Shown here: positions 1-20,093 of the stretch, piece after piece
How the letters are laid out: each line of letters begins with the position of its first letter
How positions within the stretch are numbered: the stretch's first letter is position 1
Source of the DNA: an uncultured virus (IMG/VR IMGVR_UViG_3300031241_000001)
Lineage: Duplodnaviria > Heunggongvirae > Uroviricota > Caudoviricetes
Virus record (IMG/VR): IMGVR_UViG_3300031241_000001
Direction: 5' to 3' (one strand)
DNA length: 64,000 nucleotides
Position numbers and translations under genes: made by a program
Notes under the pieces: model-generated
The model's database searches: none
What the model was told of the DNA's origin: nothing
What the model saw: the letters and a program-made list of their open reading frames with translations, nothing else

Positions 1-90
1 ATTTTAAGTTCACGTTCGAGTCGCGATGCCATTTGATGTCTCCCTGATCACGTTTGGGGTGTTAACCGGATAAGCATGGAACGAACGATC

Positions 91-2046
91 CTACGGCGTT
101 GCGGGGCTCGGCGCGAGCGGCTGCTGGTCCTTCCGCCGGTTCCGCCGCGCCGGGGCCTTCTTCTTCGTCGAAGGTGCCGGAACCTTGGGGTCGAGCGGCC
201 ACCCGCTCTCGCCGCGCGCGACGGCGCTCGCGGCGGCGAGCAGGTTTCGGCTCATCGTGATGTCCTGGTCCTCGGCGTGGCCGCAGTTCTCGCAGCGGAT
301 CACCCGCTGCACCCGGTCTTCCCGCGAGACGTCGCGGTGGTGACCGCAGGCCGCGCAGTCGAGCGTCCCACCGGCAGCGTCGACCTCCAGGTCGACGCTG
401 CCGTACTTCTTCGCGAAGTAGCCGACGCGGGCGCGGGCGCGCCCGGGCCCCAGGATGTTCACGCGGCGCGCCGTCTTCTTGCGCAGCTTCTGCTCGTCCT
501 CGTCGTGCTGGTCGTCCTTCTCGACGAGGCCGGTCACGTCGAAGTCGTCGCGGGCGACGACCCCGTAGCGCTTGGCCAGCTGGACCGCGACCGCGGTGAC
601 GCGGCCCTCGACCTGGCGCTGCATGCGCTCGAGGCTCGGCACCTCGCGGTGGAGCAGGTGGACGTCCTGCTTGCTCCACGCCTCCAGCGCCGCGAAGGCC
701 GGCTGGTCGCCGTGGATGCGCTGGTCTCGCCACTGCCGGTGCAGGCGGACGTACTTGCTGGGGGCCCGCCAGTTGTGCATGTGGCGGCTCTCTTCGCGGA
801 GCCACGACGTCGCCGGCAGCGACCGGGCGTAGGCGAGGATCATGTCGCGGAGCACGTCCTGGTTCTGGTCGCGGATCGAATGGATCGAGTCGGCCCAGGG
901 TTTCACACCGAGCACGTCCTCGGGGATCACGAGTTGCCCCCAGAGCGGGCTCGCGGGGTCGTTGGGGTCGAGTGGCGCGGTGGCGCTCCACGTGAGCAGG
1001 CGGATGCCCGCCTTCTTGCCCTCCTCGTCGAAGAGCTGACGCCAGCCGATGTGGACGGCGACCGCGTCGTGCGGGTGCGGGTGCGGGGTGGTCACGGCCA
1101 CGGAGCCCTCGACCTCAAGCGTGAGGTACCAGCGGTAGCGGAGCCCGGTGCGCTCGCGCCGGACCACGGCCCACTTGACGACGTCGTGCCCGAGCTGGAG
1201 GCGGTTCTTCGTGCGCGGGGACTGGTGCAGGAGCAGGTGCATCTGGGCCCAAATCGGGCGGATGGTGCCCGGCACAGTCCCGACGCGGATCGCGAGCGCG
1301 TGGAAGCGCTTGCCCTTCGTGGCGGCCTCTCCCGCGCGCGGCCCGATCTTGATGACGTCTCCCGGGTTCCCGGCGACGTCGATCGCGCGCCCCTCGGCGT
1401 CGACCGCGGCGGGTCGGAAGTGGTCGACCGGGGCACCCAGCGAGTACGCGACCGATCCGATGCGCAGCCAAGACCCTTCGCCGCCGATGAGATCGTCGGC
1501 GTAGACGGACTTCTTGGCGGGAAGTGTCTTGCCGGTCCGCGCGTCGATGCGCGCGTTCTGCCGCTGGAACTGGACGGCGATGCGGCCCACGTCCGGGGGG
1601 AAGTCCGTCCCCACGAACGTGGTCCGGCCGTTTTCGTCGATGAGCCCTGCCTTGTCGATCGTGCGCCGCGCGAAGTCGGCCGCGTCGTCCGCCTTGCCGA
1701 GCGTCCCCCACATGGCTCCCGCCTCGATCGTCGCGTCGCGCACGGCCTTGAGCGCGCGCTTCTTCCCCGCGAACACGCGCTCGCGGAGGGCCTTGAACTC
1801 GTCAGAGGCGTGCCACGCATCGCGGGCAGCTTTCCCAGCCTCCGACTTCCACCACGCGCCACGCGCTTCGACGGGTACGTCCCTGGCCGGGTAGTCGATG
1901 AGCGCGCGCCGGAGGAAGCGCTCGCGGTTCTCGATGAGCGCGATCTGTCGGCGGTAGCGCGCGCCGAGGCGCACCTGCTCGCGCAAGCAATGGTCGTCGG
2001 CGGCCGTCGCCGGGAGACAGAGGAACTTGTACACGCGCATCGTCAT
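91..2046 (-). CDS. Cas12m (type V-U1/V-M)-like / TnpB-derived RNA-guided protein, predicted nuclease-inactive, 651 aa
   Basis: N-terminus RVYKF...EQVRLGARYRRQIALIE typical of V-U1/TnpB-like proteins; RuvC-I AVAVHIGWR (H where active enzymes have D), RuvC-II VARDDFD (D where E is usual), CAAC..CENC Zn finger, RuvC-III DQDITMSRNLL. Confidence 0.8.
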   Translation of the reverse strand: MTMRVYKFLCLPATAADDHCLREQVRLGARYRRQIALIENRERFLRRALIDYPARDVPVEARGAWWKSEAGKAARDAWHASDEFKALRERVFAGKKRALKAVRDATIEAGAMWGTLGKADDAADFARRTIDKAGLIDENGRTTFVGTDFPPDVGRIAVQFQRQNARIDARTGKTLPAKKSVYADDLIGGEGSWLRIGSVAYSLGAPVDHFRPAAVDAEGRAIDVAGNPGDVIKIGPRAGEAATKGKRFHALAIRVGTVPGTIRPIWAQMHLLLHQSPRTKNRLQLGHDVVKWAVVRRERTGLRYRWYLTLEVEGSVAVTTPHPHPHDAVAVHIGWRQLFDEEGKKAGIRLLTWSATAPLDPNDPASPLWGQLVIPEDVLGVKPWADSIHSIRDQNQDVLRDMILAYARSLPATSWLREESRHMHNWRAPSKYVRLHRQWRDQRIHGDQPAFAALEAWSKQDVHLLHREVPSLERMQRQVEGRVTAVAVQLAKRYGVVARDDFDVTGLVEKDDQHDEDEQKLRKKTARRVNILGPGRARARVGYFAKKYGSVDLEVDAAGGTLDCAACGHHRDVSREDRVQRVIRCENCGHAEDQDITMSRNLLAAASAVARGESGWPLDPKVPAPSTKKKAPARRNRRKDQQPLAPSPATP

Positions 2047-2079
2047 TGTTGGGCGCCCCGCTGTCGCACGTGCTGTTGT

Positions 2080-2115
2080 TGCATTGACGAACAGCTAACA
2101 GGATGATAGACGTTT
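2080..2115. promoter_or_regulatory. 36-bp element, copy 1 (identical to 6183-6218); overlapping divergent sigma70-like promoters
   Basis: TGCATTGACGAACAGCTAACAGGATGATAGACGTTT; + strand TTGACG-N17-TAGACG with TGn; - strand TTGCAA(2120-2115)-N17-TAGCTG with TGn, facing the Cas12m-like gene. Confidence 0.7.
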
Positions 2116-3657: not shown

Positions 3658-5061
3658 GTGACGGTGACGATGCGGCTCGAGGAGCGTCCGTACGAGGCGA
3701 AGGCCGTCCGAGACCTCCGCGTCGAGCTGCCGGCGTACAAGCGGGTGCTCGCCGTCGCGCCCACCGGCGCGGGCAAGACGGTGATCGCGACGCTCTTGCT
3801 CGCGGTCGAGAAGCGCTGGCGTCGGGTGCTGTGGCTCGCGCACCGCGCCGAGCTGGTCGGACAGGCGCGGGAGAGCCTCTTTTCCCTCGGCGTCCCGTGC
3901 GGCGTGCGGTGTGCGTCGTACGAGGCGCTGCATCCCGACCACGTCGATCGCGAGGCCCGTGTGCAGGTCGGCAGCGTCCAGACCGTGTCGCGGCAGGAGG
4001 TCTTCGACGTCGACTTGATCGTGGTTGACGAGGCCCATCGCGCGATGGCCGACTCGTACCAGGCGATCGCGCGACTCCGGCCCCGCGCGGAGGTCCTCGG
4101 TCTCACCGCGACGCCGCTTCGGATGGACGGGCGCGAGCTGGGAGACTTCTTCCAGTCGCTGCTCGTCCTCGCCAAACCGAGTGAGCTCTACGCGGAGGGT
4201 TACCTCGCGGAGCCGGTCACCTACGCGGCCGGCCCGGAGACGCGGGCGTTGCTTGCGCAGCGTCTTCGATCGGTCCGCGTCAAGGGTGGTGACTTTCAGT
4301 TGGACGCGCTCGGTCGTGCCGTGAACACGACAGACCTCGTGGGCGACGTGGTCAGCGAGACTCGTCGCCTGGCGCCTGGTGTGCCCAAGGTCGTGTTCGC
4401 GGCGACGGTCGCGCACTCGAGAGAGATTGCGGAGCGCTTCTCGGGAGTCGGGGTCCGCGCCGCGCACATCGACGCGGACACGCCTACGGACGATCGGTCG
4501 CGCGCCTTGGCGATGCTCGCGTCCGGGGAGCTGGAGGTCGTCTGCAACGTCGAGATCTTGACCGAGGGTTGGGACCTCCCCGTCCTCGGTGCCGTCGTGG
4601 TGGCCAGGCCCACGTGGAGCCTCGGGCGCTTCATGCAGATGGTCGGTCGTGTGCAGCGGCCCGGCAGCGGCCCTCCGAAGTTGGTCCTCGACCATGGCGG
4701 AAACGCCGACCGGCTCCAACACTTCCCTGGCGAGGACGTTGACTGGAAGCTCGCACGAGGCTCTCGAAAGTTGAAGAGGAGAGCACCCCCGAGCGTGCGT
4801 CTCTGCGTCGCGTGCTGCGCCGTCCTACGGGAGACTTGCGAGGTGTGCCTCCACTGCGGCACGGCGCAGCCCCGGAGCACGAAGCGCCTCGTCGAGGAGC
4901 ACGAGGCCGAGCTGGTCGAACTCGATCGTGCACGCATCGAAGCGCTGCGGAGGGGCGTGCGTCAGCGTGCAGAGGAGGTGGCGCGGAGAGTCGGAGCACC
5001 TGCGAGCTGGGTGGACACCGTGGTTGAAGCTGTGGTCCTGCGCGGTGGGAGAGGGCGCTGA
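3658..5061 (+). CDS. Superfamily 2 DEAH helicase (RadD/UvsW/ResIII-like) with C-terminal Zn finger
   Basis: APTGAGKT, VDEAH, LTATP, LTEGWD, QMVGR motifs; CVAC..CLHC. Confidence 0.9.
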   Translation: MTVTMRLEERPYEAKAVRDLRVELPAYKRVLAVAPTGAGKTVIATLLLAVEKRWRRVLWLAHRAELVGQARESLFSLGVPCGVRCASYEALHPDHVDREARVQVGSVQTVSRQEVFDVDLIVVDEAHRAMADSYQAIARLRPRAEVLGLTATPLRMDGRELGDFFQSLLVLAKPSELYAEGYLAEPVTYAAGPETRALLAQRLRSVRVKGGDFQLDALGRAVNTTDLVGDVVSETRRLAPGVPKVVFAATVAHSREIAERFSGVGVRAAHIDADTPTDDRSRALAMLASGELEVVCNVEILTEGWDLPVLGAVVVARPTWSLGRFMQMVGRVQRPGSGPPKLVLDHGGNADRLQHFPGEDVDWKLARGSRKLKRRAPPSVRLCVACCAVLRETCEVCLHCGTAQPRSTKRLVEEHEAELVELDRARIEALRRGVRQRAEEVARRVGAPASWVDTVVEAVVLRGGRGR

Positions 5062-6182: not shown

Positions 6183-6218
6183 TGCATTGACGAACAGCTA
6201 ACAGGATGATAGACGTTT
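6183..6218 (+). promoter_or_regulatory. 36-bp element, copy 2; putative promoter of the RAMP operon
   Basis: Exact copy of 2080-2115, ending 46 bp upstream of the ATG at 6265. Confidence 0.7.
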
Positions 6219-6264
6219 GGCCGGCGCACTCGGTTTTACGAGCGCTCTACAAAGGACGACACGC

Positions 6265-7092
6265 ATGGCGAAGCAACAATCCGACTCCACCGAAGTGCAC
6301 ATCGTCAACGTCGAGCGCGGCAGGGTCACCTTCCACCTCATCGGCACCGCGCCCCTACTGCACAACTGCCTTAACAACAAGGCCCGGCAAGAGTTGCTCC
6401 TGCCGTCGGGTCGCAAGACCGAGGCCGAGCGCAAGACGACGCTGAAGCACCAGCCCCTCGAGGAGTTTCGCTCCTCGATCTACTTCAATCATCGGCCCGA
6501 GGGTCCGACGCTCGTGCAGCACCTGTCGAGCGCGTTCCGCGGAGCGATGCGCTCAGCCGCGCTCGACTTGCCCGGCGTCACGAAGGCCGAGATCGGGCGC
6601 CTGCTCTGGGTGGATGGAGACCGCGTCGACATCTACGGCCACCCACAGATCGACATGCGGATTGTCCGCCAGGCCGGCATGAACCGCACGCCCGACGTGC
6701 GCACGCGCTGCATCATGCCCGAGTGGGCGTGCGCGATCACGGTGTCGTTCACCAAGCCCCAGCTCAAAGAGCAAGCCGTGGCGAACTTGATCACGGCTGC
6801 CGGCCTCTACATCGGAATCGGCGACTATCGGAACGAGAAGGGGGCCGGCAACTACGGGTTGTTCCGCGTCTGCGCGGACAAGGATCCGGACTACGTGCGG
6901 ATCCGGAAGGCCGGTCGTAAGGTGCAGGAGGCCGCGATGAAGACGCCCGAACCATTCAACGAGGAAACGGCCGAGCTCCTGACGTGGTTTGAGGGTGCGG
7001 TGGCGGAACACCGATCCTTCGCGCCGCTCACGTCGGCGTCGGCGTCGGCGAAGGGCAAGAGGCGCGGCAAATCGAGCGAGGCGCCGTCGTGA
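6265..7092 (+). CDS. Stand-alone RAMP-superfamily (Cas7/Csm3-like) protein, candidate effector of the GGY-NN array (Vipr-like)
   Basis: AAAGGA RBS; first strand FHLIGTAPLLHN, helix SSAFRGAMRSAA (compare RAMP SSxKGxxR), C-terminal Gly-rich loop GIGDYRNEKGAGNYGLF; no cas1/cas2/cas3/cas10 nearby. Confidence 0.7.
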   Translation: MAKQQSDSTEVHIVNVERGRVTFHLIGTAPLLHNCLNNKARQELLLPSGRKTEAERKTTLKHQPLEEFRSSIYFNHRPEGPTLVQHLSSAFRGAMRSAALDLPGVTKAEIGRLLWVDGDRVDIYGHPQIDMRIVRQAGMNRTPDVRTRCIMPEWACAITVSFTKPQLKEQAVANLITAAGLYIGIGDYRNEKGAGNYGLFRVCADKDPDYVRIRKAGRKVQEAAMKTPEPFNEETAELLTWFEGAVAEHRSFAPLTSASASAKGKRRGKSSEAPS

Positions 7093-7594: not shown

Positions 7595-7901
7595 GGCGCG
7601 GCTTGGTTGGGCATGGCGAGGTAAGGCCTGGCGAGGTAAGGCTGGCATGGGGCAGGGCGAGGCCCGGCTTGGCGGGGCAGGGCTCGGCACGGTTGGGCGA
7701 GGCGTGGCAGGCAAGGCGTGGCCGGGTAAGGTCTGGTTAGGCAAGGCAAGACAGGGCTTGGCAGGCGTGTCAAGGCTAGGCAAGGCTCGGCTCGGCTCGG
7801 CTCGGCTCGGCTGGGCACGGCAGGCACGGTGCGGCGCGGCAAGGTTCGGCACGGCAGGCGCGGTTCGGCGCGGTTCGGCGCGGCATGGCAAGGCTGGGCC
7901 T
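7595..7901 (+). repeat. Array of about 57 GGY-NN pentamers in six segments delimited by 4-nt GGCA/GGCT units; putative guide ncRNA
   Basis: Parsed by hand: GGCGC GGCTT GGTTG GGCAT GGCGA GGTAA ...; only two units deviate from GGY (GACAG 7750, GTCAA 7769) plus one extra GG at 7649; tetramer breaks at 7640, 7706, 7760, 7819, 7853. Confidence 0.9.
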
Positions 7902-8184
7902 GTATTCTTCGCGGTCCGTCAGATCATTAGCGAGATCACTCTACGGTTCGCAGCTTGGCGCCTGGAGGCTTGCAACCTCTGCTAGGGTCGCGGCATGTGC
8001 GACGAGCGGCATGGTCCTTACTGAAGGCGCGCGCTTCGTCACGCCCCGCGTGCGATCGCGCCTCCCGCTGAAGCGTTCACTTGCGGCGGTGGGTGTGGCT
8101 ACGCGGCGACCGCTACGTCTCACGGTTCGAGGACTCGCACCAAGAGCCTTGGCTTCGCAGCAGCCGGCCAAGGGTGCCTCCGAA

Positions 8185-9597
8185 ATGGAGATTGCAGTCG
8201 TCGGTCGTCGACCGACTGATGATCGAGACGGTAAGTCTGTCGCTTCACCTGTTTCAACTCCTGCACATGCAGTGCTTGAAGACGCAGTAACGCTTGGGCG
8301 CCAGCGCAGCGCCGCGGCCAGGGGATCGAAGGTCGAAGGCCGCCGTGTGAAGGGGGCTGTGAAAGGAGTTGCTGTGAAGGGCTCTCCTCAAGTGAGCCCT
8401 TTCGTGGCCGAGAGTATTGCGCCCTCGGTACTGGTCCCCCCGGCACCGCTCCAACTTCAATCGCGGTCGTCGCTTGAGACTGCGAAGCCCCCCGCGGTTG
8501 CGGCGGCGACTGACCCGCGTGTCCAGCAGGCGGCAAGCTGCCTCGATCGCGTGTCGTCGAAAGGGGTGCTCTCGCCCGACGAGGTGAACGACCTGCACCA
8601 GTCGATCGAGGTGCTGGAGGTCGAGACTTGGCGCCTGGCGCTGGGTTCCGAGGAGTCATCGACCGCGACACGTCGTGTGATCGATCGGTACGTCGCCGCA
8701 CAGGCGTCTTCCAGTCATCCGTCTCCGCACATCATCGCGCTGCGCTCGATCTTGGCAGCCCACGACGGCCACGGGATGACCTGCGCCTCCTTACGCGCGG
8801 CCGACCTGGACCTCGAGCTGATGATGCTGGTGGTCGTCGAGCTTGAGAGGCTGCGTCAGGTTGTCGAGCCCCTGCGCCGAGCGCACGACGCCGCGCAGCG
8901 GCTGCGCGCACGGTTCGTCGCCGCGAACATGGGCCTCGTCCACAGCATCGCCCGCAAGTACGCCTGGTCAGCCACGCCGTTCGCGGACCTCATACAGGAC
9001 GGCACGCTCGGGCTCATGCACGCGATTCCGCGCTTCGACCGTGCGAAGGGCTTCCGTTTCTCGACGTACGCGTTGAATTGGATCCGTCAGGGGATCGTGC
9101 GGCAACTCCACGATTGTGGAGAGAACGTGCGTATCCCCGTCCACGCGCACGAGAGCTTGTACAAGATCAACAAAGCTCGTTCGCATCTTCGCGCGCAGCA
9201 CGGGCACGATCCATCGGACGCCGAACTCAGTGCAGCGACGGGCATCAAGGTCGACGTGATCCAGAAGCTCGGCAAGGGGATCGTCGGGGAAGCACGCATG
9301 TCGCCCGAGGTGACCGATCGCCTGTTCGGCAAGCTGCCCGACGCGGCAGAGTCCGCGGTGGATGTGTTAATCGCGGGCCAAGACCGTGCGGTCTTGCACG
9401 CCGCGATCGCCAAGCTGGCCCCACGCGAGCGCCTCGTGGTCGAGCGGCTGTACGGGTTTGTTGATGACGGCGAGGGGTGCACGCTCAGGGAGGTTGGCGA
9501 GGACGAGGGTGTGTCACGCGAGCGCATTCGACAGATCCAGGCGGCGGCGATCGCGAAACTGCGCAAGTTCCTGCTAGCGTCGGGAGCACGCGGATGA
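8185..9597 (+). CDS. RpoD/sigma70-family RNA polymerase sigma factor (start codon uncertain)
   Basis: Region 2 ANMGLVHSIARKY..DLIQDGTLGL..FD..KGFRFSTYA.NWIRQ, region 3 VRIPVH, region 4 TLREVG...VSRERIRQI. Confidence 0.9.
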   Translation: MEIAVVGRRPTDDRDGKSVASPVSTPAHAVLEDAVTLGRQRSAAARGSKVEGRRVKGAVKGVAVKGSPQVSPFVAESIAPSVLVPPAPLQLQSRSSLETAKPPAVAAATDPRVQQAASCLDRVSSKGVLSPDEVNDLHQSIEVLEVETWRLALGSEESSTATRRVIDRYVAAQASSSHPSPHIIALRSILAAHDGHGMTCASLRAADLDLELMMLVVVELERLRQVVEPLRRAHDAAQRLRARFVAANMGLVHSIARKYAWSATPFADLIQDGTLGLMHAIPRFDRAKGFRFSTYALNWIRQGIVRQLHDCGENVRIPVHAHESLYKINKARSHLRAQHGHDPSDAELSAATGIKVDVIQKLGKGIVGEARMSPEVTDRLFGKLPDAAESAVDVLIAGQDRAVLHAAIAKLAPRERLVVERLYGFVDDGEGCTLREVGEDEGVSRERIRQIQAAAIAKLRKFLLASGARG

Positions 9598-11379: not shown

Positions 11380-12153
11380 TTGACTGTCAGACCCGCCGTG
11401 ATCCGGGCGTCTCACGGGCATGCAGGCCAGAGAATTCATCATCGCGCTCGTGCACGTCGACATGGAGCACGGTTACGCAGGAGACCTCATCGAGGGCGTG
11501 GGAGCGCGTGGCTCCGTCGTCACGCGCTGTGCTGGAGCGCGGCGCTTCAAGTCGCTCAAGCGGGCGCTCGACGCGGCGCAGGGCTGGACCTGGTACGCGG
11601 ACATCGTCCGGGTCATGGCCGTTGAAGGTTGAAGCGCACGGGAAGCGCGGATCTTTCTTCTTTCTTGACCGTCAAACCCCCTCACGCGAAACTGAGGTCG
11701 TGCCACGAGTCTCGAATTTTGTGCGGGAATTCAAGGGCATGCGGGGATTCAAGGACGGCTGGTACTACAGGTTGACTGAGGGATATCCCTGGATCGGACC
11801 CTTCGTGACAGAGCGCATTGCGGGTCACGCGAGAGCGCATGTGACCAGTAACGTCAGAGACGTCTGGTCTGAACCACCGCAGTGGCTCAAGATCTCCACG
11901 TCCGTCGCCCTTGGTCGTCTCTCCCTGATACCGCCCCGCGGCGCCCCCGCATTTAAGATCCCTGCGACGAGCCTGCACACGGTCCCGGTCCCGGCATCAG
12001 CGCCACTTCAATCAAACGGCTACCAAGCGCGACCACGACACGCATTGTCCGCCCGTCAAGAAGCCCCCGTAGGGCGCGATAAGAGCGCTGCTCCAGAAGC
12101 GGTCATGGTCCCGCGTCGGCGCGGTTCACGAACAGTCTGATGCGGGTCTAGCT

Positions 12154-12178
12154 GTTGCCCGTTTATCGAAAGGGCAAC
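12154..12178. terminator. Hairpin at the convergence of + and - gene blocks
   Basis: GTTGCCC-N11-GGGCAAC; no U-tract. Confidence 0.3.
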
Positions 12179-12200
12179 GTCGTGCGCTCAGCGCTCAGCC

Positions 12201-12716
12201 TCAGCCTTCCTTCGTGTACTTCGTCCCGCGCGGCATGCGGTCCACGGGGGGTAGACCGTCGTGGCCCCGCGTCGAGTTGTAGTCCCACAGAGCGTCACGT
12301 CGAGCGTTGGGCAGGGGGCCGCGCACTCGCGTCGTGTAGCTGCCCACCTCCGCTGTCGGAGGGACCGTGACGACGTAGAGCTTCTTCATGGTCGCGTGCG
12401 CACGGGGGTTCTCCGCGCCACCAGCGTGCGCGGTGATCTTCGCGCGGGCGCGCGCACGGGAGGGAAACGTGCCGAGATCGACCTCGTTGCTCGGTCCCCA
12501 GGACTTGTAGTCGACGCGGTGCCCGGTCGGCACCGTGACGATCCAGTAGGCGCCGTCCTTCGTCCGCACGTCCGCCGTGCCGAGGGCGTGGCTGCCGACG
12601 ACGGGGCCCCACACGCTCCGAGGTGTCGAACGTTTGGTCGCGTGGCTCGTGGGCTTTCCCGCGAGAGCTTCGTTGATCTCGCGTTGGAGCTGGGCGTGCG
12701 TCTTCTTGGCCGTCAT
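12201..12716 (-). CDS. Hypothetical protein with N-terminal QLxxEIxxAL tag
   Basis: MTAKKTHAQLQREINEALAG. Confidence 0.75.
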   Translation of the reverse strand: MTAKKTHAQLQREINEALAGKPTSHATKRSTPRSVWGPVVGSHALGTADVRTKDGAYWIVTVPTGHRVDYKSWGPSNEVDLGTFPSRARARAKITAHAGGAENPRAHATMKKLYVVTVPPTAEVGSYTTRVRGPLPNARRDALWDYNSTRGHDGLPPVDRMPRGTKYTKEG

Positions 12717-12768
12717 TGGTTATCCCGTCGAGTCTATCGAAGGCGGTAACAAAGCGCACATTTTTTGC

Positions 12769-13116
12769 TCACGAAGCGACCCGCGCCTTCGCCGCGCGTT
12801 CGGCGTCGGCGTCACGGGGCGCGGGCGCGATCGAAGCGTCAGCCTCCGTGAGGTGCGCGTGCGCCGGGCAGAAGTCGCGTCCTCCCCGGTCCTCGCAGCG
12901 CCAGCCGTCCTTGTTCTCCGCGATGCACCGGATCAGGACGGCGTCGCGGTGTAGCGAGAAGGCCGTCTCGCAGCGACGGTCGAACAGCATCGTGCCGCCA
13001 CAGAGCCGGCAGGCGACGCCGGTCACCGCAGAGGAGGTCGCGACCTCCGCCTGGCAGTCCGTGCAGTGCAGGAGCGCCGCGTCGCACGAGATCGTTGTCA
13101 CCACCACGACGCTCAC
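12769..13116 (-). CDS. Small Zn-finger protein
   Basis: CTDC, CRLC, C..C..CPAH. Confidence 0.5.
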   Translation of the reverse strand: MSVVVVTTISCDAALLHCTDCQAEVATSSAVTGVACRLCGGTMLFDRRCETAFSLHRDAVLIRCIAENKDGWRCEDRGGRDFCPAHAHLTEADASIAPAPRDADAERAAKARVAS

Positions 13117-13153
13117 CCTACCGAGGCTCCGATCCTGATCGCAAGGTCCAAGA

Positions 13154-13798
13154 TCACGCGCGGACCTCGACGCGCATGTGCACCATCGTCACGCCGTCGA
13201 GCAGGGCTGCGGGCACGTCGAGCCGCACGCCGAGGGCTTTTGCCGCGAGCACGAACACCAGTGGGATCGGGCCGCCGGTCAGCGAGCCGAAGGCTTGGGC
13301 GCCCGCGAGCGCGGTCGCGTGCTCGATCTTCCGCAGGTCGACCAGCGCGATCGGCTTGGGCTCCGCGCCCGGGCCGAGCTCGCAGTTCTCTGGGGGTGAG
13401 ACCACCATGTGGTAGCGGCAGACCGTGGGGCGGACCGCGTAGACCTCGCAGCGTCGGTCCGGTGTCAGGAACATGCACGGGAGCTGGCGCTGGAAGAAGG
13501 CCACGCGCTCGCGCTCGTCGAGGACGTTGACGCCGGCGAACGCGGTGAGCTGCTTGACCAGCTCGCGCTCGAGCGCGGGGCGCCGCTGCTCCCAATCGCA
13601 GCGACTCGTGAGGTACTCGACGACCGGGACCATCTCCGGGATGGTCGCGGTCGCGGGCAGCGTGCAGCAGTGGGCGCAGCCCTCCTTGCAGGTCACGCCC
13701 ATCGTGGCCACGGCCTCTGCGACGAGCGGCGCGTGCTCGCGGTAGAGCTGGAGCACCACCTTGCTGGCACGCTTCGCGCGGCGACCCTCTTGGCTCAC
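13154..13798 (-). CDS. YkgJ-family Fe-S/Zn cysteine-cluster protein
   Basis: CKEGCAHCC ... CMFL ... CEVYAVRPTVCR. Confidence 0.8.
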   Translation of the reverse strand: MSQEGRRAKRASKVVLQLYREHAPLVAEAVATMGVTCKEGCAHCCTLPATATIPEMVPVVEYLTSRCDWEQRRPALERELVKQLTAFAGVNVLDERERVAFFQRQLPCMFLTPDRRCEVYAVRPTVCRYHMVVSPPENCELGPGAEPKPIALVDLRKIEHATALAGAQAFGSLTGGPIPLVFVLAAKALGVRLDVPAALLDGVTMVHMRVEVRA

Positions 13799-14982
13799 GG
13801 GCGGCCCTCGGCGTCCCAGCGCTTCATCGCGGCGCGTTCGGTGGGACGATGGGCGGCGAAGGTCTCGGCGGAGATCGCGCGCCGCGTCGCCTCCTCGATC
13901 GCTTGCTCTCGAGGCAGTCCGGCGCCGCTGGCGCGCCGCCACTCGCGCGAGCCGTCGTCGTAGAAGCGCAGCTGGTAGACGTAGAAACTGCGGCAGTCGT
14001 CGCTCTGCGGGCAGCCCGGGAGCCCGCAGCGAGCGGTGCAATGGGGGATGCGCAGCACGCGCACGCCGGATCGGAACTGCACGACCAGGCACCCTTCCAT
14101 CCAGTAGTCCGGTCTCGTCACGAGCCACGAGCGTCTCGGTGGCCGTGCCGACCGCGTCGGGGTGAGTGGTAGTCGCGGAGCCGGCGGCAGGCAGCCGACG
14201 CAGAAGCAGTGCGCCCACACTCGGGAGTCCGCGCGCGGGCCGATGACGGGCACACCGCAGCGCTCGCACGCGCCGCGCGGCGTGCTTTGACGTGGAGAGG
14301 ACATCAGGACCCTTGGCAATGCTCGTGCTCGTAGTACGGGTTCGACACGTACGGCCTGTGGGACTTGCTGGGAGCGCGAGCGCTCGCCACGAGCTGGGCT
14401 CCGAGGATCCCCAGGGTTCCGAAGCCGATAAGGATGCCGAACATCTCGACGAGCACGTCGGGCTTCTTCGCGGAGTGCCCTTGCGGGTCCTCCACGACCT
14501 GACCGGCCTGAGTGGCGCCGTAGTACCCGCGTGCGTTCATTTTTTCATACTAGCGTTGGGTCGAGAGGATGTGTCGAAGTTTCATCGACGGAAACTGCAC
14601 GACCAAGTCCCCTTCCATTCAGTAGTTCGGTTTCGTGGTCACGTCGGCGCCTTCGCTCCGCGCGGCTTCTTCTGGCCGCGGGCCACCTCGTGGGCCGCGA
14701 GGCGGGCGATCGTTTCGCTCGTGTTGTCGCCGATCCGGCACACGTAACACGTTGGAGGCGGTGGTCGCGGCGACCCGTCCCCACCGTCGACGCCCCAACC
14801 CGCCGTCGCCGGTCCGCCGCAGCTCGTGCAGACGGAGTCGTGCGATCGGAGCAGCCACCCGTTGCCGTGGCCGACGACGGGGACGACGTCGCGACTGGAG
14901 TCATCGAAGCCGAAGCACCACGGGCAGCGGTTGGACGGACAGCGCGTGAAGTAGCCGTGGGGGCACTTCTCCGCTGAGAGGC

Positions 14983-16101
14983 TCACCTCCGGGACCTCTT
15001 CTTACGCGGTCGATCGTCGCCGAGCGCCACGAACTCGCGCAGGAGATCCTCCTGCTTGGGGGACAGCTTCCGCGGCACTTCGACGATGAAGCGGACCACG
15101 TGGTCACCACGCTCTCCTCCGCCGACGCTCGGGATGCCCTGGCCGCGACGATGCAACTCGTCGCCCGGCTGCGTGCCGGGACGCAACTCCAGGATCGCGG
15201 TCCCCGTGCAGTCGTCGTCGAGCGTGTCGACCTCGACCTCGCCGCCGAGCGCTGCTTGGGCGAAGCTGATCGTCACCTCGCTGGTGACGTCGCTGCCGTC
15301 GCGCGTGAAGCGCTCGTCTTCTTGGACGTGGAGGACGACGTGGAGGTCGCCGGAGGCGCCGCCGGGCACGCTCTCGCCCCTGCCGGAGACGCGGAGCGTT
15401 TGGCCGTCGTCGACGCCGGCTGGGACCGTCAAGGACAGCGTGGACTTCTCGGTCCGCGTGCCTCGCCCGCGGCAGTCCGGGCACGGGTCCTTGATCGTCT
15501 TCCCCGCGCCCTGGCAGTGCGGACACGTCGTCTGCACCATGAAGAAGCCTTGTGCGTGAGTGACCTGACCCTTGCCCTGGCACGCACGGCAAGGCTCGGG
15601 TTGCGCTGCGCCGCGCACGCCGGTCGCGCGACACGCCGCGCACCCCGCGGCGCGCGTGACCTCGACGTCCTTGCGCACGCCCCACACGGCCTCGCGGAAG
15701 GTGAGCCTCAGGTCGAGGCGCAGGTCGGCACCGCGCGTCGGTCGGCGCGAGTTGCGACCAAAGAAGTCGCCGAACAAGTCGCCGAACGCCGAGAAGATGT
15801 CGTCGACGTTGTTGAAGCCGCCGCTGAACCCCGCCCCTGGTCCGTCGCCGGGGGCAGCGCCGCCGCGGCGGATCCCGTCGAAGCCGTGGCGGTCGTACGC
15901 AGCACGCTTGTCGGTGTCGGACAGGACCTGGTAGGCGTTCGCGGCCTCCTTGAACTTCTCCTCGGCGGTCTTGTCTCCCGGGCACTTGTCGGGGTGGTAC
16001 AGCTGCGCGAGGCGGCGGTAGGCTTTCTTGAGGTCGGCTGGCGTCGCCGCGCGCGGGACGCCGAGCACCTCGTAGAGGTCGCGAGGCGCAGACGTGCTCA
16101 C
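14983..16101 (-). CDS. dnaJ: Chaperone DnaJ (class A)
   Basis: J-domain with HPD, G/F-rich region, CxxCxGxG repeats, C-terminal domain; GTG start overlaps upstream stop. Confidence 0.93.
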
Positions 16102-16636
16102 GCCGTGCCTCCGGGAGCCTGCGGCTGGCGGAGGACCGCTCCCGCCTCGAGCTTGGGGATCGCCAACTCGCACGAGCGCAGCTCGATGAGGAGGTTCTGC
16201 GGCACGACCTGCGCCTTGCTCAGGACCTCGTCGACGAGGCGGCGGGGTTCCACGACGGCGGTCCGGAGCTTCGCCAGCTCAGTGTCTCGCTCGGCGCTTC
16301 GCGGTGGTGTCGCGGCGGTGATGAGCATGCAGGTTTTGGCCCACGCGACCTCGTCGATCAGGCGATCGATCAGCTCGCGCGACGGGCGGTTTGGGGGGTC
16401 GGAGCAGGCGGGCATTTGCTGGGGAGTCTACTCGGTGGAGGGTGGGAACCTGACACAGATCCGCGCCTCACCGCCATCGTTTCGATCCTGGGCCTTGCCA
16501 TCACACCGAGTGCACGTTTGGAGGCGCCCTGCGCCCTGGCGCCTGGCGCCTCGGAGGTCAGCGGTCAGCGGGGTGCCGCGTGATCGCGTATAAGCGACCT
16601 TGAGCCGGCGCGGTGCTGGCCGACGAGGAGCAGGAG

Positions 16637-17950
16637 ATGCCGGAGCAGATCGAACAGCTCGACGCGACCCGAAGTGTCGCAGATCACCACGCTTGGTTCG
16701 TTGGAGAGCTGGACCGGCTCGCCAGCGCCGTCAAGCTGGACCCGACCCACGTACCGTCTGGGCTGCTCGAGATCATCGCGAACGCACGCGCGCACTCGGA
16801 GGCGCTCGTCGCGAACCCGCTGCACCGCGAGCCGATCGCGGTCGTCGGTGTTGACCCACGGACCGCGGGCATGATCGAGATGCACGCCGCGCTCGTCCAG
16901 TCGGCGCACGCCGAAGCGGCGCTCGCCGCGCCGAACAACGTCCCCCCGAAGCCCGACAGCTGGTTGCAGCGACTTCGTGACCGCATCTTCGGGCATGCCG
17001 AACCCAACGCTCAGCGCTACGGTGACTTCGACGTCCACTGGCTTGAAGCACTCGCCGAGCGCCTCACCGCGAAGAAGGCCGCCTTTTCGACGGCTCCTCC
17101 CGCCGACCTCGCGATCGGCGCGGGCAAGGTGCGGCTCGCGATCGTCGGTGACTGGGGAACCGGTCTGCCGGAGTCCGACCTGATCGGCACGCACATGCTC
17201 GCGACCGATCCCGACTACACGATCCACCTCGGCGACGTCTACTACGCCGGGACGGTCCCCGAGGAGGAGCGCTACGTCGAGTTGTGGCCAGGCGCGCCCG
17301 GCAAGTCACTGTCGCTCAACTCCAACCACGAGATGTACAGCGGGGGTCACGGCTACTTCGAGGCGACTCTCGGGAGCGCGAAGTTCGCGCTCCAGCAGCA
17401 CGCGAGTTACTTCGTGATGCGCCACGAGCACTTCCTGATCATCGGGCTCGACTCGGCGTACTACGCTGACGACTTCCTGTACCAGCAAGGCAACCTCGAC
17501 GACGTCCAGCTGCGGTTCGTCCGCGAGCTCGCCGCGGCAAACCCAACCCGCAACATCGTCATCCTGACGCACCACCACGGGCTCGACCTCGATAACGCGC
17601 CGACGCGGATGTGGAGCCAGGTGCTCGGCGCCGTCGGCCGGCCGTTCCTGTGGGTGTGGGGACACATCCACGCCGGCGTGGCGCACGAACCGCGGCCGTT
17701 CCCGTTCCCGGTGTTCGCACGCTGCGTCGGCCACGGAGGTGTGCCGCATTCGCCGTTCACTGCGGCCGAGGCGGCGACGTATGCTTGGGCGGAAACGCGC
17801 CTCGCCGATGATCGCGACGAGGCGAAGCGCGCGCTCAACGGGTTCTACACGCTCGAGATCGACGGCGCCACGCTGACCGAGCGGTTCATCGACGAGCGCG
17901 GTGACGAGACGTACTCGTCGGTGGTGTTCCGCGGACCGCCGACGCGCTGA
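16637..17950 (+). CDS. Calcineurin-like metallophosphoesterase
   Basis: GDWG, HLGDVYY, NSNHE, THH, WGHIH; GGAG RBS; isolated + strand gene inside the minus-strand run. Confidence 0.85.
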   Translation: MPEQIEQLDATRSVADHHAWFVGELDRLASAVKLDPTHVPSGLLEIIANARAHSEALVANPLHREPIAVVGVDPRTAGMIEMHAALVQSAHAEAALAAPNNVPPKPDSWLQRLRDRIFGHAEPNAQRYGDFDVHWLEALAERLTAKKAAFSTAPPADLAIGAGKVRLAIVGDWGTGLPESDLIGTHMLATDPDYTIHLGDVYYAGTVPEEERYVELWPGAPGKSLSLNSNHEMYSGGHGYFEATLGSAKFALQQHASYFVMRHEHFLIIGLDSAYYADDFLYQQGNLDDVQLRFVRELAAANPTRNIVILTHHHGLDLDNAPTRMWSQVLGAVGRPFLWVWGHIHAGVAHEPRPFPFPVFARCVGHGGVPHSPFTAAEAATYAWAETRLADDRDEAKRALNGFYTLEIDGATLTERFIDERGDETYSSVVFRGPPTR

Positions 17951-17958
17951 CGGGGGGC

Positions 17959-18306
17959 TCACCGCTTCGGTTCGTAGCAGCGCCCTCCGGCTCCGAGCGA
18001 CGACCCGAGTTGCCCGCGGCGCCGCATCGATTCGAGCACCGAGCGCGTCCAGGTGCGCTGCCGCTCCTTGGTGGCCCAGCGGAAGTCCTCTGGCATGTGC
18101 GCCTGGCGCAGGTAGTCGGCGACGAGACCGACCGTCACGCATGGTTCTTTGCCCCCGACGGTCGCGTGTCGTCTGTACGCGCCCTCGATGATCTCCGTCG
18201 CGCCGGCCTCGATTGCCGTGCGCACGGCGTCGGGGATCCGCTTTCGTGCAGCGTGCCTCGTGAGGGCTGCGGCAATCTCGGCGTCGAGTTGGGAAGTCTT
18301 GGTCAC
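17959..18306 (-). CDS. Tagged hypothetical protein
   Basis: Starts (V)TKTSQLDAEIAAAL; GTGA overlap. Confidence 0.7.
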   Translation of the reverse strand: MTKTSQLDAEIAAALTRHAARKRIPDAVRTAIEAGATEIIEGAYRRHATVGGKEPCVTVGLVADYLRQAHMPEDFRWATKERQRTWTRSVLESMRRRGQLGSSLGAGGRCYEPKR

Positions 18307-18752
18307 CGCTGCTTGCTCTTCGGTCGGACCCACAGGACGTCCACCTCCTCGACACCGTGGTCGGCGAGAACTGACAGCCGGTGGTTCCCGTCGATCACTC
18401 CACCGTGCTGGTCGATGACGATCGGCCAGGGTTCTTGGTGCTGGTAGACGATCAGCCCTTCGACTTGATCGTACCGCCTGAGGTTCTGGCGGACCTCCTT
18501 GGCGTCGCTGTCGGGATCCACCTCGTAGTCGAACCTCGACCCGGGGTCCAGGTCGTGGATCGGTACGCCGCGAACGAGGTCCCACGTGTACTTAGACGGG
18601 GATTTGAACTCGGGGAACTTGACGGCCTTCTTGATCAGGGCGCCGTAGGACTTTGGGTCGACGCGCTCTCTGTGGAGGGAGACCAGCCACTCCGGGGCGC
18701 TCAGGGCTTCGTCGATCTCGGCGTCGAGTTGCGAGGGCTTCTTGGGTGTCAT
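18303..18752 (-). CDS. Tagged ParB/Srx N-terminal-domain protein
   Basis: MTPKKPSQLDAEIDEAL; PIVID..GGVIDGNHRL. Confidence 0.75.
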   Translation of the reverse strand: MTPKKPSQLDAEIDEALSAPEWLVSLHRERVDPKSYGALIKKAVKFPEFKSPSKYTWDLVRGVPIHDLDPGSRFDYEVDPDSDAKEVRQNLRRYDQVEGLIVYQHQEPWPIVIDQHGGVIDGNHRLSVLADHGVEEVDVLWVRPKSKQR

Positions 18753-19084
18753 CGGTCTTCTGCTTCGGACGCGATCCATTCCTGCATGTCCGCCTTCACA
18801 GCGCTCTCCGCGCAACTCTGCCAGGCATCACGCCACGCTCTGTAAGCGGCTCTCAGCTCGAGACCGCTCTTGAGGATCCCGTCAACGTCGGCTTGAGAGA
18901 GCCACTGATCGTACTGGTCCTCGTCGTTACCCCACGCTTCGCGCACGATCTTCTTGGCAGCTCCGCTGCCTTGCGGTTTGCCGAGGCGTTCCCAAGCGTC
19001 GTTGTGGTCGCTCGTGTTGAATACGTTGGCGCAGTCCTGGTAGCCGGTTCGGGCGAAGTCCCCGTAGTTTAGTCTGTCCCGCAT
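18749..19084 (-). CDS. Hypothetical protein
   Basis: ORF coupled to neighbours. Confidence 0.6.
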   Translation of the reverse strand: MRDRLNYGDFARTGYQDCANVFNTSDHNDAWERLGKPQGSGAAKKIVREAWGNDEDQYDQWLSQADVDGILKSGLELRAAYRAWRDAWQSCAESAVKADMQEWIASEAEDR

Positions 19085-19386
19085 TTGGATCTCCTAAGAG
19101 CCTCGGCGATCTCGGCGTCGAGGCGGGCCCGCGTCCTCTTCACCGGGGGCACCGGGGTCCGTGGCACGGTTTCCAGCGTCGCGTACTTCGGGTTCATGCG
19201 CATCTCGACGGTCTTCGCGACGCGCCCGCGGTCGACGATGCGCAGTCGTCGGTGGGCACCGGGGGGCTCGACCTCGTCGCCCTCGGCGTTGACCTCGACG
19301 CCGCGGATGAAGAGCACAGAGTCGCTGGTGACGCGTAGGATGAAGCGCGTGCCGTCGTCGAGCGTGACCTTCAGGTAGCGGATCAC
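19069..19386 (-). CDS. Hypothetical protein with C-terminal tag
   Basis: KRTRARLDAEIAEAL near the C-terminus. Confidence 0.7.
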   Translation of the reverse strand: MIRYLKVTLDDGTRFILRVTSDSVLFIRGVEVNAEGDEVEPPGAHRRLRIVDRGRVAKTVEMRMNPKYATLETVPRTPVPPVKRTRARLDAEIAEALRRSKCGTD

Positions 19387-19799
19387 GTGAGCCCCTGGGC
19401 CGCGAGGAGCTGCTGGACCTCGGCGCGCAGCGCGCCCACCTCGCGGTGCAGCTGTGACCGGGGCGTGTGAGGAAACATCGGGGAGCCCAGGTTGGCGTCG
19501 AGGCCCGGGACCTCGACGTTGTCGACTTGGTCGTTCACGACCTTCGTGAGGCCGCCGAGCGCTCTCAGGCGATCGGCGGTCGGGGAGGGACCGACGGCCT
19601 CGACGGAGGCGCGGACGACCTCCAGCCGCCCTAGGCGGTACGCCTCGGAGGCGCGGACGCGGTCCGTCACGACCTCCGCCGCCGTGGACAGGGGGTCGCG
19701 GCGGTCGGTGTAGGACACCCTGCCTGCGCCGGACTCCTGCGCGGCGCGCGTCACGGCGATCTCGCGGTCGAGCTGGGCGGATTTCCGACGATCAGACAT
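19383..19799 (-). CDS. Tagged hypothetical protein
   Basis: MSDRRKSAQLDREIA. Confidence 0.65.
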   Translation of the reverse strand: MSDRRKSAQLDREIAVTRAAQESGAGRVSYTDRRDPLSTAAEVVTDRVRASEAYRLGRLEVVRASVEAVGPSPTADRLRALGGLTKVVNDQVDNVEVPGLDANLGSPMFPHTPRSQLHREVGALRAEVQQLLAAQGLT

Positions 19800-20091
19800 C
19801 GGACCAGCCTTCCTTGCTCGCGAGGCCCTGCATGTAGCGACCGCCACGCCAGCGGTGCCACACCTCGACACGCGAGTGCTCCCCCTGACGCACGAGCTTC
19901 ATTGCGGCGCGCTTCGCCGCAAGACGAGACCGAAATTCCGGTTCCAGCGGCTGCTCCTTGGTGTCGGTGAGGTAGAAGACTCTTTCGTCGTCGCTGTCAT
20001 CGTCAGACGTAGACGTGGACGCGGATCCCGCGAGCGCTGCGGCGATTTCGCGGCTGAGCTGTGTAGCGGACGTTTTCGAGCGCCTGTTCAT
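19792..20091 (-). CDS. Tagged hypothetical protein
   Basis: MNRRSKTSATQLSREIAAAL followed by a Ser/Asp linker. Confidence 0.7.
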   Translation of the reverse strand: MNRRSKTSATQLSREIAAALAGSASTSTSDDDSDDERVFYLTDTKEQPLEPEFRSRLAAKRAAMKLVRQGEHSRVEVWHRWRGGRYMQGLASKEGWSDV

Positions 20092-20093
20092 TG

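What the first reader, a model, noticed from the sequence alone, without database searches (positions are those of the whole stretch)
91..2046. Phage-borne Cas12m/TnpB-like protein with a degenerate RuvC (H-D-D): probable RNA-guided repressor
Seen: RuvC-I AVHIGWR, RuvC-II ARDDFD, RuvC-III DQD and an intact Zn finger; no transposase or cas1/cas2 in the window. Established: Cas12m and TldR proteins have altered RuvC sites and silence by DNA binding. Inference: a second RNA-guided DNA-binding system 4 kb from the RAMP locus. Its guide (CRISPR mini-array or omega-like RNA) may lie downstream, left of position 1, where only 90 bp are visible.
Basis: partly seen in the sequence, partly recalled or inferred. 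Interest (0 to 1): 0.75.

Follow-up and report, generated by a model that had tools for sequence, protein, structure and literature searches.

The report
Cas12m gene with giant CRISPR array
This gene encodes a Cas12m-type CRISPR protein that most likely silences DNA by binding rather than cutting it, and just past the window's edge lies its unusually large 93-repeat guide array and a second, different Cas12m gene.

Summary
Window 91-2046 (-) is a real 651-aa gene with His332, Asp500 and Asp593 at the three RuvC positions and an intact CxxC...CxxC zinc ribbon. It is a Cas12m (type V-M, formerly V-U1) effector by profile (PADLOC Cas12u1 1.5e-38), by solved-structure sequences (2.9e-33) and by whole-length fold.

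H-D-D is not decay. It is the published non-canonical triad of Cas12m2, which binds DNA and silences without cutting (PMC10442227). Here it arose independently: the seven H-D-D sequences nest among D-E-D relatives, and a tree joining them to Cas12m2-like proteins is rejected.

The predicted guide exists. In the matching 461-kb metagenome contig, a CRISPR array of 93 repeat units (7.9 kb) starts about 216 bp beyond window position 1. A 272-bp MITE-like insertion sits in its leader. A second, D-E-D Cas12m gene (25% identical) follows the array.

I found no adaptation genes, tracrRNA or spacer targets. The "RAMP locus" is unconfirmed, and "phage" is inferred only, because no virion gene was seen. 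This is a new member of a known kind, of moderate interest.

The parts
91..2046 (-). cas12m-A: Cas12m (type V-M) effector gene, 651-aa ORF including the stop at 91-93; likely start at 2038-2040 (649 aa)
   Evidence: PADLOC Cas12u1 1.5e-38; PDB Cas12m chains 2.9e-33 to 8e-19; Foldseek top 4 hits all Cas12m
1051..1053 (-). His332 codon, RuvC-I position (VAVHIGW)
   Evidence: aligned to D of 23vw and to the H of LHLGWRS in Cas12m2, the motif PMC10442227 assigns to His317
547..549 (-). Asp500 codon, RuvC-II position (VARDDFD)
   Evidence: aligned to E of 23vw and to D of Cas12m2 and 8pm4
268..270 (-). Asp593 codon, RuvC-III position (EDQD)
283..357 (-). TNB zinc ribbon, CxxC...CxxC (Cys564, 567, 585, 588)
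   Evidence: Pfam PF07282 Cas12f1-like TNB 6.7e-8 at residues 536-601; the four Cys are invariant in 40 sequences
2047..2102 (.). 56-bp divergent intergenic region upstream of cas12m-A (next gene starts at 2103 on +); presumed promoter, not tested
79..86 (-). 8-bp target-site duplication GTTCGTTC, left copy, of a MITE-like insertion between the cas12m stop and the array
   Evidence: second copy at L003 12241-12248
1..78 (-). Left part of the 272-bp MITE-like element (L003 11969-12240): 15-bp terminal inverted repeat at 64-78; small 69-aa ORF starting at 30-32 with a GGGAGA upstream, running off the window. The CRISPR array starts about 216 bp further left, outside the window

Best explanation
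The gene encodes a Cas12m (CRISPR-Cas type V-M) effector of a rare clade. It lies on a 461-kb extrachromosomal-looking contig, probably a huge phage. It is most likely transcribed together with the 93-unit CRISPR array that follows it on the same strand. The pre-crRNA would be cut within the repeats. That would leave a 5' handle of about 24 nt made of the repeat's 3' hairpin (7-bp stem, 7-nt loop, then AC) followed by a roughly 36-nt spacer. The crRNA-protein complex would then find PAM-flanked matching double-stranded DNA and stay bound, blocking transcription or replication of the target instead of cutting it. The His332/Asp500/Asp593 site would hold the displaced strand through a single Mg2+, as described for Cas12m2. 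Shown here: family membership, the triad and its conservation, the array and its orientation, the conserved hairpin, and the independent origin of the triad. Inferred by homology: binding without cleavage, crRNA processing, and silencing. Unknown: the targets, which are presumably rival mobile elements or host genes.
For: Family: PADLOC Cas12u1 1.5e-38. Sequence hits to solved Cas12m chains: 23vw 1.3e-25 with the single protein; with the clade profile 23vw 2.9e-33, 8pm4 6.8e-21, Cas12m2 8e-19. AF2 model pLDDT 84.2, pTM 0.73. Its four best Foldseek hits are all Cas12m (8hhl E 8.1e-26, TM 0.61/0.67); the next is Cas12f at 5.7e-11, TM 0.37. Guide: window 1-500 is the reverse complement of L003 11547-12046. 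L003 carries 93 repeat cores at 12262-20156 on the gene's strand: 70 of 93 repeats have at most 2 mismatches to the 36-nt consensus, and 67 of 92 intervals are 29-50 nt with a mode of 36. Degenerate repeats cluster at the far end, so the leader is on the gene's side. Arrays co-occur with the gene family: the 70% orthologue (L002) has 52 units of a near-identical repeat 25 bp after its stop codon (29 bp after the last sense codon), and the 50% D-E-D relative (L004) has an array whose repeat has compensatory stem changes. All four repeats fold to the same 3' hairpin plus AC. Selection: H and D are kept in 7 of 7 clade members at 60-83% identity. Mechanism by homology: the H-D-D site of Cas12m2 binds one Mg2+ and the non-target strand and does not cut, and D-E-D, H-D-D and N-D-D Cas12m all bind but do not cleave (PMC10442227 and PMC11013384, passages read).
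Against: No biochemical test was possible. No protospacer was found for any spacer, so neither a PAM nor a target class is known. The array is irregular: 9 of 93 units have lost the 5' part of the repeat, 6 intervals are under 29 nt and 19 are over 50 nt. A 272-bp element is inserted in the leader. The array is letter-for-letter identical in two samples (0 mismatches in 15,016 bp), which could mean it is no longer renewed. A second Cas12m gene at the other end of the array could be the array's user, or a co-user. Phage identity is not shown.
Confidence: 0.8

Rival explanations
1. The array belongs to, or is shared with, the second Cas12m (cas12m-B, D-E-D, 645 aa) that starts about 100 bp after the last repeat. 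cas12m-A would then be one half of a two-effector locus.
For: cas12m-B lies on the same strand directly after the array (L003 20260 onward). It is a strong Cas12m (Cas12u1 8.8e-89, 23vw 8.3e-65). Its family's repeat in an IMG/VR contig (L005) has the same architecture of a 3' hairpin plus GAC.
Against: In L005 the B-type gene has its own array downstream, not upstream. In the 333-kb relative, the B orthologue (P0178) is not within 10 kb of the A gene and its array. The repeat sequence tracks the A lineage: the L003 and L002 repeats share an identical hairpin stem and differ at only six positions, four in the 5' part and two in the loop. DNA downstream of cas12m-B could not be fetched, so a separate B array is not excluded.
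Confidence: 0.15
2. The locus is a decaying relic. The effector and array are no longer functional, and the altered RuvC site is plain loss of function.
For: Truncated repeats, odd spacer lengths and duplicated spacers. A MITE-like insertion in the leader. No adaptation genes in the 74 kb seen. Identical arrays in two samples.
Against: Intact ORFs in all 7 clade members, with H, D, D and the four Cys conserved. GC3 of 0.93. 70 of 93 repeats are near-perfect. The same H+D pair arose in separate Cas12m lineages and is functional in Cas12m2 (PMC10442227). The two related elements share 0 spacers, so arrays have turned over.
Confidence: 0.08
3. The protein is still a nuclease, cutting or nicking DNA or acting as an RNase with the H-D-D site.
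For: Asp593 and an acidic residue at position II are kept. His can take part in metal or acid-base catalysis. Most relatives are D-E-D (109 of 142).
Against: In Cas12m2 the H-D-D site binds only one Mg2+ and does not cut. Even D-E-D Cas12m proteins did not cut in published assays, and pre-crRNA processing is RuvC-independent (PMC10442227, PMC11013384).
Confidence: 0.07
4. It is a transposon TnpB, or a TldR-like domesticated TnpB, guided by an omega-type RNA.
For: Weak hits to TnpB models (guided_TnpB 1.7e-10; PHROG 'transposase' 4.5e-12). The PF07282 domain is shared.
Against: Scores lie far below the family cut-offs (40.7 bits against 100; 18.9 against 425). Cas12m models and structures match far better. 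A CRISPR array, not IS ends or an omega RNA, follows the gene in three lineages. No TnpA is present.
Confidence: 0.02

Closest known systems
Cas12m2 / MmCas12m and GoCas12m (type V-M, H-D-D clade; PDB 8HHL, 8HIO, 8PM4)
   Same: Same family and whole-length fold. Same H-D-D residues on the same columns. crRNA-only system with a 36-nt repeat ending in a hairpin plus AC. No adaptation genes nearby. Expected to bind and silence without cutting.
   Different: Only about 19-20% identical in the structural alignment. The zinc ribbon is CCCC here; Cas12m2's is HCCC (PMC10442227). It is not in that clade: it nests among D-E-D proteins, and a joint clade is rejected. It is larger (649 against about 596 aa), has a far larger array, and sits on a giant phage-like element.
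D-E-D Cas12m proteins (PDB 23vw 'CRISPR-associated DNA-binding protein Cas12m'; the Allomeiothermus silvanus plasmid protein, L038)
   Same: The closest solved relative by sequence (1.3e-25 single, 2.9e-33 profile). CCCC zinc ribbon. The nearest relatives of the clade (P0009, P0010 and others) are D-E-D.
   Different: Positions I and II are D and E there, H and D here.
MvCas12m of myxophage MV-1 (bioRxiv 10.64898/2026.09.14.751636)
   Same: A virus-encoded type V-M locus with an adjacent array, no cas1/2/4, no tracrRNA and no spacer targets found (passages read).
   Different: MvCas12m is 610 aa with D-E-D and eight spacers. This one is H-D-D with 93 repeat units, and a second Cas12m gene follows the array. 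I could not compare the sequences, because the preprint's sequence and supplements were not available.
Huge-phage CRISPR systems (Al-Shayeb et al. 2020, PMC7162821), including type V-U variants and CasPhi
   Same: A compact type V effector next to an array, with no acquisition genes, on a contig of several hundred kb that encodes its own sigma-70.
   Different: That paper gives a median of six repeats per phage array; this array has 93 units. CasPhi structures match the model only weakly (TM about 0.32).
TnpB (IS200/IS605) and TldR
   Same: Shared RuvC plus TNB core; TldR also has an inactivated RuvC and represses by binding (as described in the discussion of 10.64898/2026.03.26.714355).
   Different: No IS ends, TnpA or omega RNA. 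A CRISPR array is present instead. TnpB models score far below their cut-offs.

Membership tests
Cas12m (CRISPR-Cas type V-M, formerly V-U1) | Sequence match to Cas12m / V-U1 profiles and to solved Cas12m chains | tested here: met
   PADLOC Cas12u1 1.5e-38; 23vw 1.3e-25; clade profile: 23vw 2.9e-33, 8pm4 6.8e-21, 8hhl 8.2e-19
Cas12m (CRISPR-Cas type V-M, formerly V-U1) | Whole-length bilobed fold (WED/REC plus RuvC with an inserted TNB zinc ribbon) | tested here: met
   AF2 model pLDDT 84.2. Foldseek ranks 1-4 are all Cas12m, aligned over 628-686 columns, TM 0.58-0.73; next is Cas12f, TM 0.37/0.54. The CCCC ribbon is invariant
Cas12m (CRISPR-Cas type V-M, formerly V-U1) | Adjacent CRISPR array on the same strand; about 36-nt repeat whose 3' part forms the crRNA hairpin | tested here: met
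   93 units at L003 12262-20156, 305 nt after the stop codon (25 nt without the insertion). Orthologous arrays in L002 and L004. Hairpin with compensatory stem changes
Cas12m (CRISPR-Cas type V-M, formerly V-U1) | No tracrRNA (crRNA-only guide) | tested here: inconclusive
   No reverse-strand copy of the repeat with up to 7 errors in L001-L004. The best anti-repeat-like match (17 of 18 nt, window 324-341) lies inside the coding sequence and is not kept in L002 (12/18) or L004 (13/18). No RNA data
Cas12m (CRISPR-Cas type V-M, formerly V-U1) | No adaptation module (cas1, cas2, cas4) at the locus | tested here: met
   0 of 87 window ORFs; L003 downstream holds only the array and cas12m-B. The other roughly 387 kb of the contig could not be read
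Cas12m (CRISPR-Cas type V-M, formerly V-U1) | PAM-dependent dsDNA binding without cleavage; silencing of targets | not testable with these tools
   Inferred from PMC10442227 and PMC11013384
Cas12m2 clade (the published H-D-D 'clade 2') | Common descent with MmCas12m and GoCas12m | tested here: not met
   The Cas12m2-like proteins of two Mycobacterium intracellulare plasmids (6e-193 to 8hhl) sit on a separate long branch. The window's clade is sister to D-E-D P0009 (SH-aLRT 100) inside a D-E-D group. AU test of a joint clade: p 8e-8
TnpB of IS200/IS605 | Score above the family cut-off; IS ends, a TnpA neighbour, and an omega RNA overlapping the 3' end | tested here: not met
   NF040570 40.7 bits against a cut-off of 100; NF038281 18.9 against 425. 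No TnpA. A CRISPR array follows the gene
TldR (TnpB-like nuclease-dead repressors) | A single omega-like guide RNA beside the gene, with no CRISPR array | tested here: not met
   An array of 93 units follows the gene. No TldR sequence was available for direct comparison
Huge phage (genome over 200 kb) | Virion and packaging genes (major capsid, portal, terminase, tail) | tested here: inconclusive
   0 of 88 window ORFs hit a PHROG of those categories. Atlas look-ups of two large ORFs stayed under 0.9. The contig is not in the held IMG/VR set. In favour: contig length 461,400 bp, mostly unknown small genes on one strand, and its own sigma-70, DnaJ, helicase and Mom-like genes

The most novel reading that the evidence does not exclude
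A giant phage-like element runs a two-effector Cas12m system. A convergently evolved H-D-D 'clamp' Cas12m and a divergent D-E-D Cas12m flank, and both draw guides from, one 93-spacer array that is maintained without any adaptation genes. The array would serve as a large fixed programme for silencing rival elements or host genes during takeover, rather than as an adaptive immune memory.
Probability: 0.15. Interest if true: 0.75.

Novelty: new member of a known kind. Interest (0 to 1): 0.5.

Why it matters
Three points reach beyond routine annotation.

(1) The H-D-D site, so far treated as the hallmark of one Cas12m clade, arose again in a separate lineage. His at position I was paired with Asp at position II in 10 of 10 H-bearing sequences. 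That argues the pair is an adaptive DNA-holding state, not decay. It also offers a natural D-E-D/H-D-D sister pair (P0009 and this clade) for testing what the switch does.

(2) An array of 93 units without acquisition genes lies far above the median of six repeats reported for phage arrays (PMC7162821). This raises the question of how such arrays grow and what they are for.

(3) Two Cas12m genes only 25% identical at the two ends of one array is an arrangement I did not see described in the papers I read. I ran no literature search aimed at that arrangement. Compact natural DNA binders of this family are also used as editing and repression scaffolds.

Tried and rejected
- **Spacer targets.** Spacers of L003 and L002 against the window and all loci gave nothing longer than 17-19 nt apart from array remnants.
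  - The whole L003 array against 'phages' and 'plasmids' gave a best E of 0.05-1.
  - The L002 array against 'phages' gave a best E of 0.1.
  - 5 genomes gave no match.
  - In 401 genomes of the phylum of a Myxococcota MAG, 20 had a match at E <= 1e-3. The best was 2.8e-5 at 81% identity, and none was a near-full-length match.
  - The first 24 nt of spacer 1 had 0 hits in viral contigs.
- **Reading the rest of the contig.** So self-targeting outside 74 kb, a possible array after cas12m-B, and virion genes remain open.
- **Same repeat elsewhere.** 0 hits in viral contigs. Solitary repeats in the window: 4 matches at 3 mismatches against 6.9 expected by chance.
- **Relatives of cas12m-A in IMG/VR.** None found.
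- **Host.** DnaJ relatives are 37-46% identical across many phyla, which is uninformative. The window has no tRNA genes.
- **tracrRNA.** The 17/18 anti-repeat-like match inside the gene is not conserved in orthologues and was rejected as chance.
- **Expression.** No RNA holder was listed.
- **AU test on 50 rows.** It did not finish. I replaced it with 28 rows under LG+G4.
- **Atlas look-ups of two large ORFs.** Scores were 0.84-0.85, which is a lead only.
- **Papers I could not see.** Wu et al. 2022 (Mol Cell) was not read and is known here only through citing papers. bioRxiv supplements were closed, so MvCas12m could not be compared.
Full report
**1. The observation**

Window 91-2046 on the minus strand is an open frame of 651 codons. 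Its GC at codon positions 1/2/3 is 0.72/0.48/0.93, the coding signature of this roughly 67% GC DNA. All close homologues begin at MRVYKF, so the true start is probably the ATG at 2038-2040.

- VAVHIGW, with His332 at 1051-1053
- VARDDFD, with Asp500 at 547-549
- HAEDQDI, with Asp593 at 268-270
- Cys564, 567, 585 and 588 at 283-357

**2. What the protein is**

Generic libraries see only the C-terminal TNB/TnpB-like part. Pfam PF07282 scores 6.7e-8. NCBIfam guided_TnpB scores 40.7 bits against a cut-off of 100.

More specific evidence points to Cas12m:
- PADLOC's Cas12u1 model (V-U1, the former name of V-M) matches at 1.5e-38.
- The best solved-structure sequence is 23vw, 'CRISPR-associated DNA-binding protein Cas12m', at 1.3e-25.
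- A profile of the clade hits three different Cas12m structures: 23vw at 2.9e-33, 8pm4 at 6.8e-21 and Cas12m2 (8hhl/8hio) at 8e-19.
- An AlphaFold2 model built from a 40-sequence alignment has mean pLDDT 84.2 and pTM 0.73.
- The model's four best Foldseek hits in the PDB are all Cas12m complexes aligned over the whole length. The best is 8hhl, with E 8.1e-26 and TM 0.61/0.67. The next hit is Cas12f at 5.7e-11 with TM 0.37.

In the HMMER alignments, His332 falls on the RuvC-I column, Asp500 on RuvC-II and Asp593 on RuvC-III.

**3. H-D-D is a known, functional state**

Omura et al. [quoted passage not shown] It binds only one Mg2+ and holds the non-target strand. It does not cut, and mutating Asp485 weakens binding and silencing.

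Bigelyte et al. (PMC11013384, passages read) show that Cas12m proteins with D-E-D, H-D-D and N-D-D sites all bind PAM-flanked DNA without cleaving it. These proteins protect E. coli from plasmids and phages. Their pre-crRNA processing is RuvC-independent, and there is no tracrRNA.

'Degenerate' is the wrong word for it.

**4. The triad arose independently here**

The protein's clade is tiny. Only 8 proteins were found in the 5.8-billion-cluster collection, one of them identical to the query. Seven sequences, the query and six others at 60-83% identity to it, have H-D-D. The eighth, P0009 at 51% identity, has D-E-D.

The exhaustive profile search found 2,804 relatives at E <= 1e-3. I aligned 142 of the 157 proteins then stored. 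The 15 dropped were under 450 aa or were the duplicate P0002. Of the 142, 109 are D-E-D, 8 are H-D-D (the seven plus P0103) and 25 are other combinations.

The trees agree with each other:
- In a FastTree of the 142 rows and in IQ-TREE trees of 44 and 50 rows, the seven H-D-D sequences form one group. That group is sister to P0009 (support 100) and nested in a D-E-D group.
- For the 50-row tree I added Cas12m2-like proteins from two Mycobacterium intracellulare plasmids. They match 8hhl at 6e-193. They are H-D-D and sit on a separate long branch.
- That tree needs 3 changes of the H-D-D label; its starred branches alone force at least 2.

AU tests reject both joint clades I tried:
- The window's clade joined with P0103: p 0.0002, 44 rows.
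- The window's clade joined with the Cas12m2-like pair: p 8e-8, 28 rows under LG+G4.

Both groups were named after the trees had been seen, so these p-values are only indicative.

In the two sets I tabulated, His at position I goes with Asp at position II in 10 of 10 H-bearing sequences. This fits the His-Asp hydrogen bond reported for Cas12m2.

**5. The guide**

The metagenome scan returned four loci:
- L003: from a 461,400-bp contig, 100% identical protein.
- L001: a 15-kb contig from another sample.
- L002: from a 332,853-bp contig, 70% identity.
- L004: 50% identity.

Window 1-500 is the exact reverse complement of L003 11547-12046. L003 therefore shows what lies left of window position 1.

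A CRISPR array starts at L003 12262, about 216 bp beyond the window, and runs to 20156. It is on the gene's strand and has these features:
- 93 units carrying the 22-nt repeat core.
- 70 units within 2 mismatches of the 36-nt consensus, 14 with 3-5 mismatches, and 9 that have lost the 5' part.
- 92 intervals: 67 of 29-50 nt (mode 36), 6 shorter than 29 nt and 19 longer than 50 nt.
- Worn repeats clustered at the far end, so the leader is at the gene.

L001 is identical to L003 over all 15,016 bases compared.

The related loci behave the same way. L002 has 52 units of a near-identical repeat starting 25 bp after its stop codon (29 bp after the last sense codon), and it shares 0 spacers with L003. 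L004 has its own array about 65 bp after the stop of its gene (the tblastn match ends earlier, at 4108; read from the sequence), and its repeat stem carries compensatory changes.

All four repeats, including that of L005, fold into a 7-bp stem with a 7-nt loop, followed by AC and then the spacer. That is the design described for the Cas12m2 crRNA handle.

I found no conserved anti-repeat and no solitary repeats in the window.

**6. Surroundings**

*The leader insertion.* Between the stop codon and the array, L003 carries a 272-bp element at 11969-12240. It has 15-bp terminal inverted repeats and an 8-bp direct duplication, GTTCGTTC. It also carries a 69-aa ORF preceded by GGGAGA. Without the element, the gene-to-array distance is 25 nt, against 25 nt in L002. 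Its left end is window 1-86.

*The second Cas12m gene.* Directly after the array lies another Cas12m gene, from L003 20260 to beyond the locus end. The full protein, P0159, has 645 aa.
- It is 25% identical to the first protein.
- It is D-E-D with a CCCC ribbon.
- It matches Cas12u1 at 8.8e-89 and 23vw at 8.3e-65.
- It falls in the other main branch of the family tree.
- Its family has 97 members at E <= 1e-3, of which 17 lie on contigs of 100 kb or more.
- One member, in a 95-kb IMG/VR contig (L005), has its own array downstream.
- The 333-kb relative also has an orthologue (P0178), but it is not next to that element's first array.

I could not read the DNA beyond L003, so whether cas12m-B has its own array is open.

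*Other genes in the window.* Of 87 window ORFs, none other than cas12m-A hit a CRISPR-Cas model. The 'RAMP locus' at 6217-7092 hit only phrog_4652, of unknown function.

The window encodes a helicase, a sigma-70, DnaJ, a glycosyltransferase, Mom-like and ParB-like proteins, and an integrase-like fragment. It encodes no recognisable virion protein: 0 of 88 ORFs. 'Huge phage' is thus a reasonable inference from size and gene content, but it is not a demonstrated fact.

**7. Targets**

I found no convincing protospacer in any of the following:
- the window and the loci held
- 50,697 phage records
- 72,556 plasmids
- 406 genomes
- IMG/VR, tested with one spacer

Mean spacer GC is 0.63, close to that of the element itself. 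This suggests high-GC targets.

**8. Comparison and novelty**

Virus-encoded type V-U variants were reported in huge phages in 2020, with a median of six repeats per array and almost no acquisition genes (PMC7162821). A September 2026 preprint reports 'the first Cas12m identified in a bacteriophage': D-E-D, 610 aa, eight spacers. Earlier notes of this scan also list several phage Cas12m loci, including eroded arrays that keep only the 3' part of the repeat.

The kind is therefore known. The new points here are:
- a rare clade with an independently evolved H-D-D site
- a 93-unit array
- a second Cas12m gene at the other end of that array
- a mobile-element insertion in the leader

**Verdict:** a new member of a known kind, of moderate interest.

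Noticed in passing
window 1-86 (continues to L003 12248): A 272-bp MITE-like element in the CRISPR leader. It has 15-bp terminal inverted repeats (CATGCTTATCCGGTT), an 8-bp target duplication (GTTCGTTC) and a 69-aa ORF with a GGGAGA ribosome-binding-like site. It is absent from the orthologous junction in L002, and no other copy lies in the window. The ORF has no PHROG hit.
   Followed up: partly
L003 20260-21953 and beyond (outside the window, about 8.2 kb left of position 1): A second Cas12m gene (P0159, 645 aa, D-E-D, 25% identical to the first) lies directly after the array on the same strand. Of 97 family members, 17 lie on contigs of 100 kb or more.
   Followed up: partly
L003 12249-12261; L002 12089-12101; L004 about 4213-4230: A conserved TCTGACAA / TTTGACAA motif lies 5-10 nt upstream of the first repeat in all three arrays. 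It may be a leader or promoter element.
   Followed up: no
window 324-341: A 17-of-18-nt match to the reverse complement of the repeat hairpin lies inside the cas12m coding sequence (codons for HHRDVSR). It is not conserved in L002 or L004, so it is probably chance.
   Followed up: yes
   Followed up: partly
window about 7614-7889 (L003 4158-4433): A dense run of GC-rich tandem repeats (periods 5, 10, 15, 25 and 34; GCCGA-type units) lies immediately upstream of the sigma-70 gene at 7885-9597.
   Followed up: no
L003 array; L002 array: Duplicated spacers occur within the arrays (1 pair in L003, 2 pairs in L002). Units with only the 3' 22-nt core of the repeat are retained. Both point to internal duplication and deletion rather than ordered acquisition.
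   Followed up: partly
window 63123-63605: A 161-aa ORF gives a weak integrase-family hit (phrog_95, 7.2e-10). It is the only recombinase-like signal in the window.
   Followed up: no
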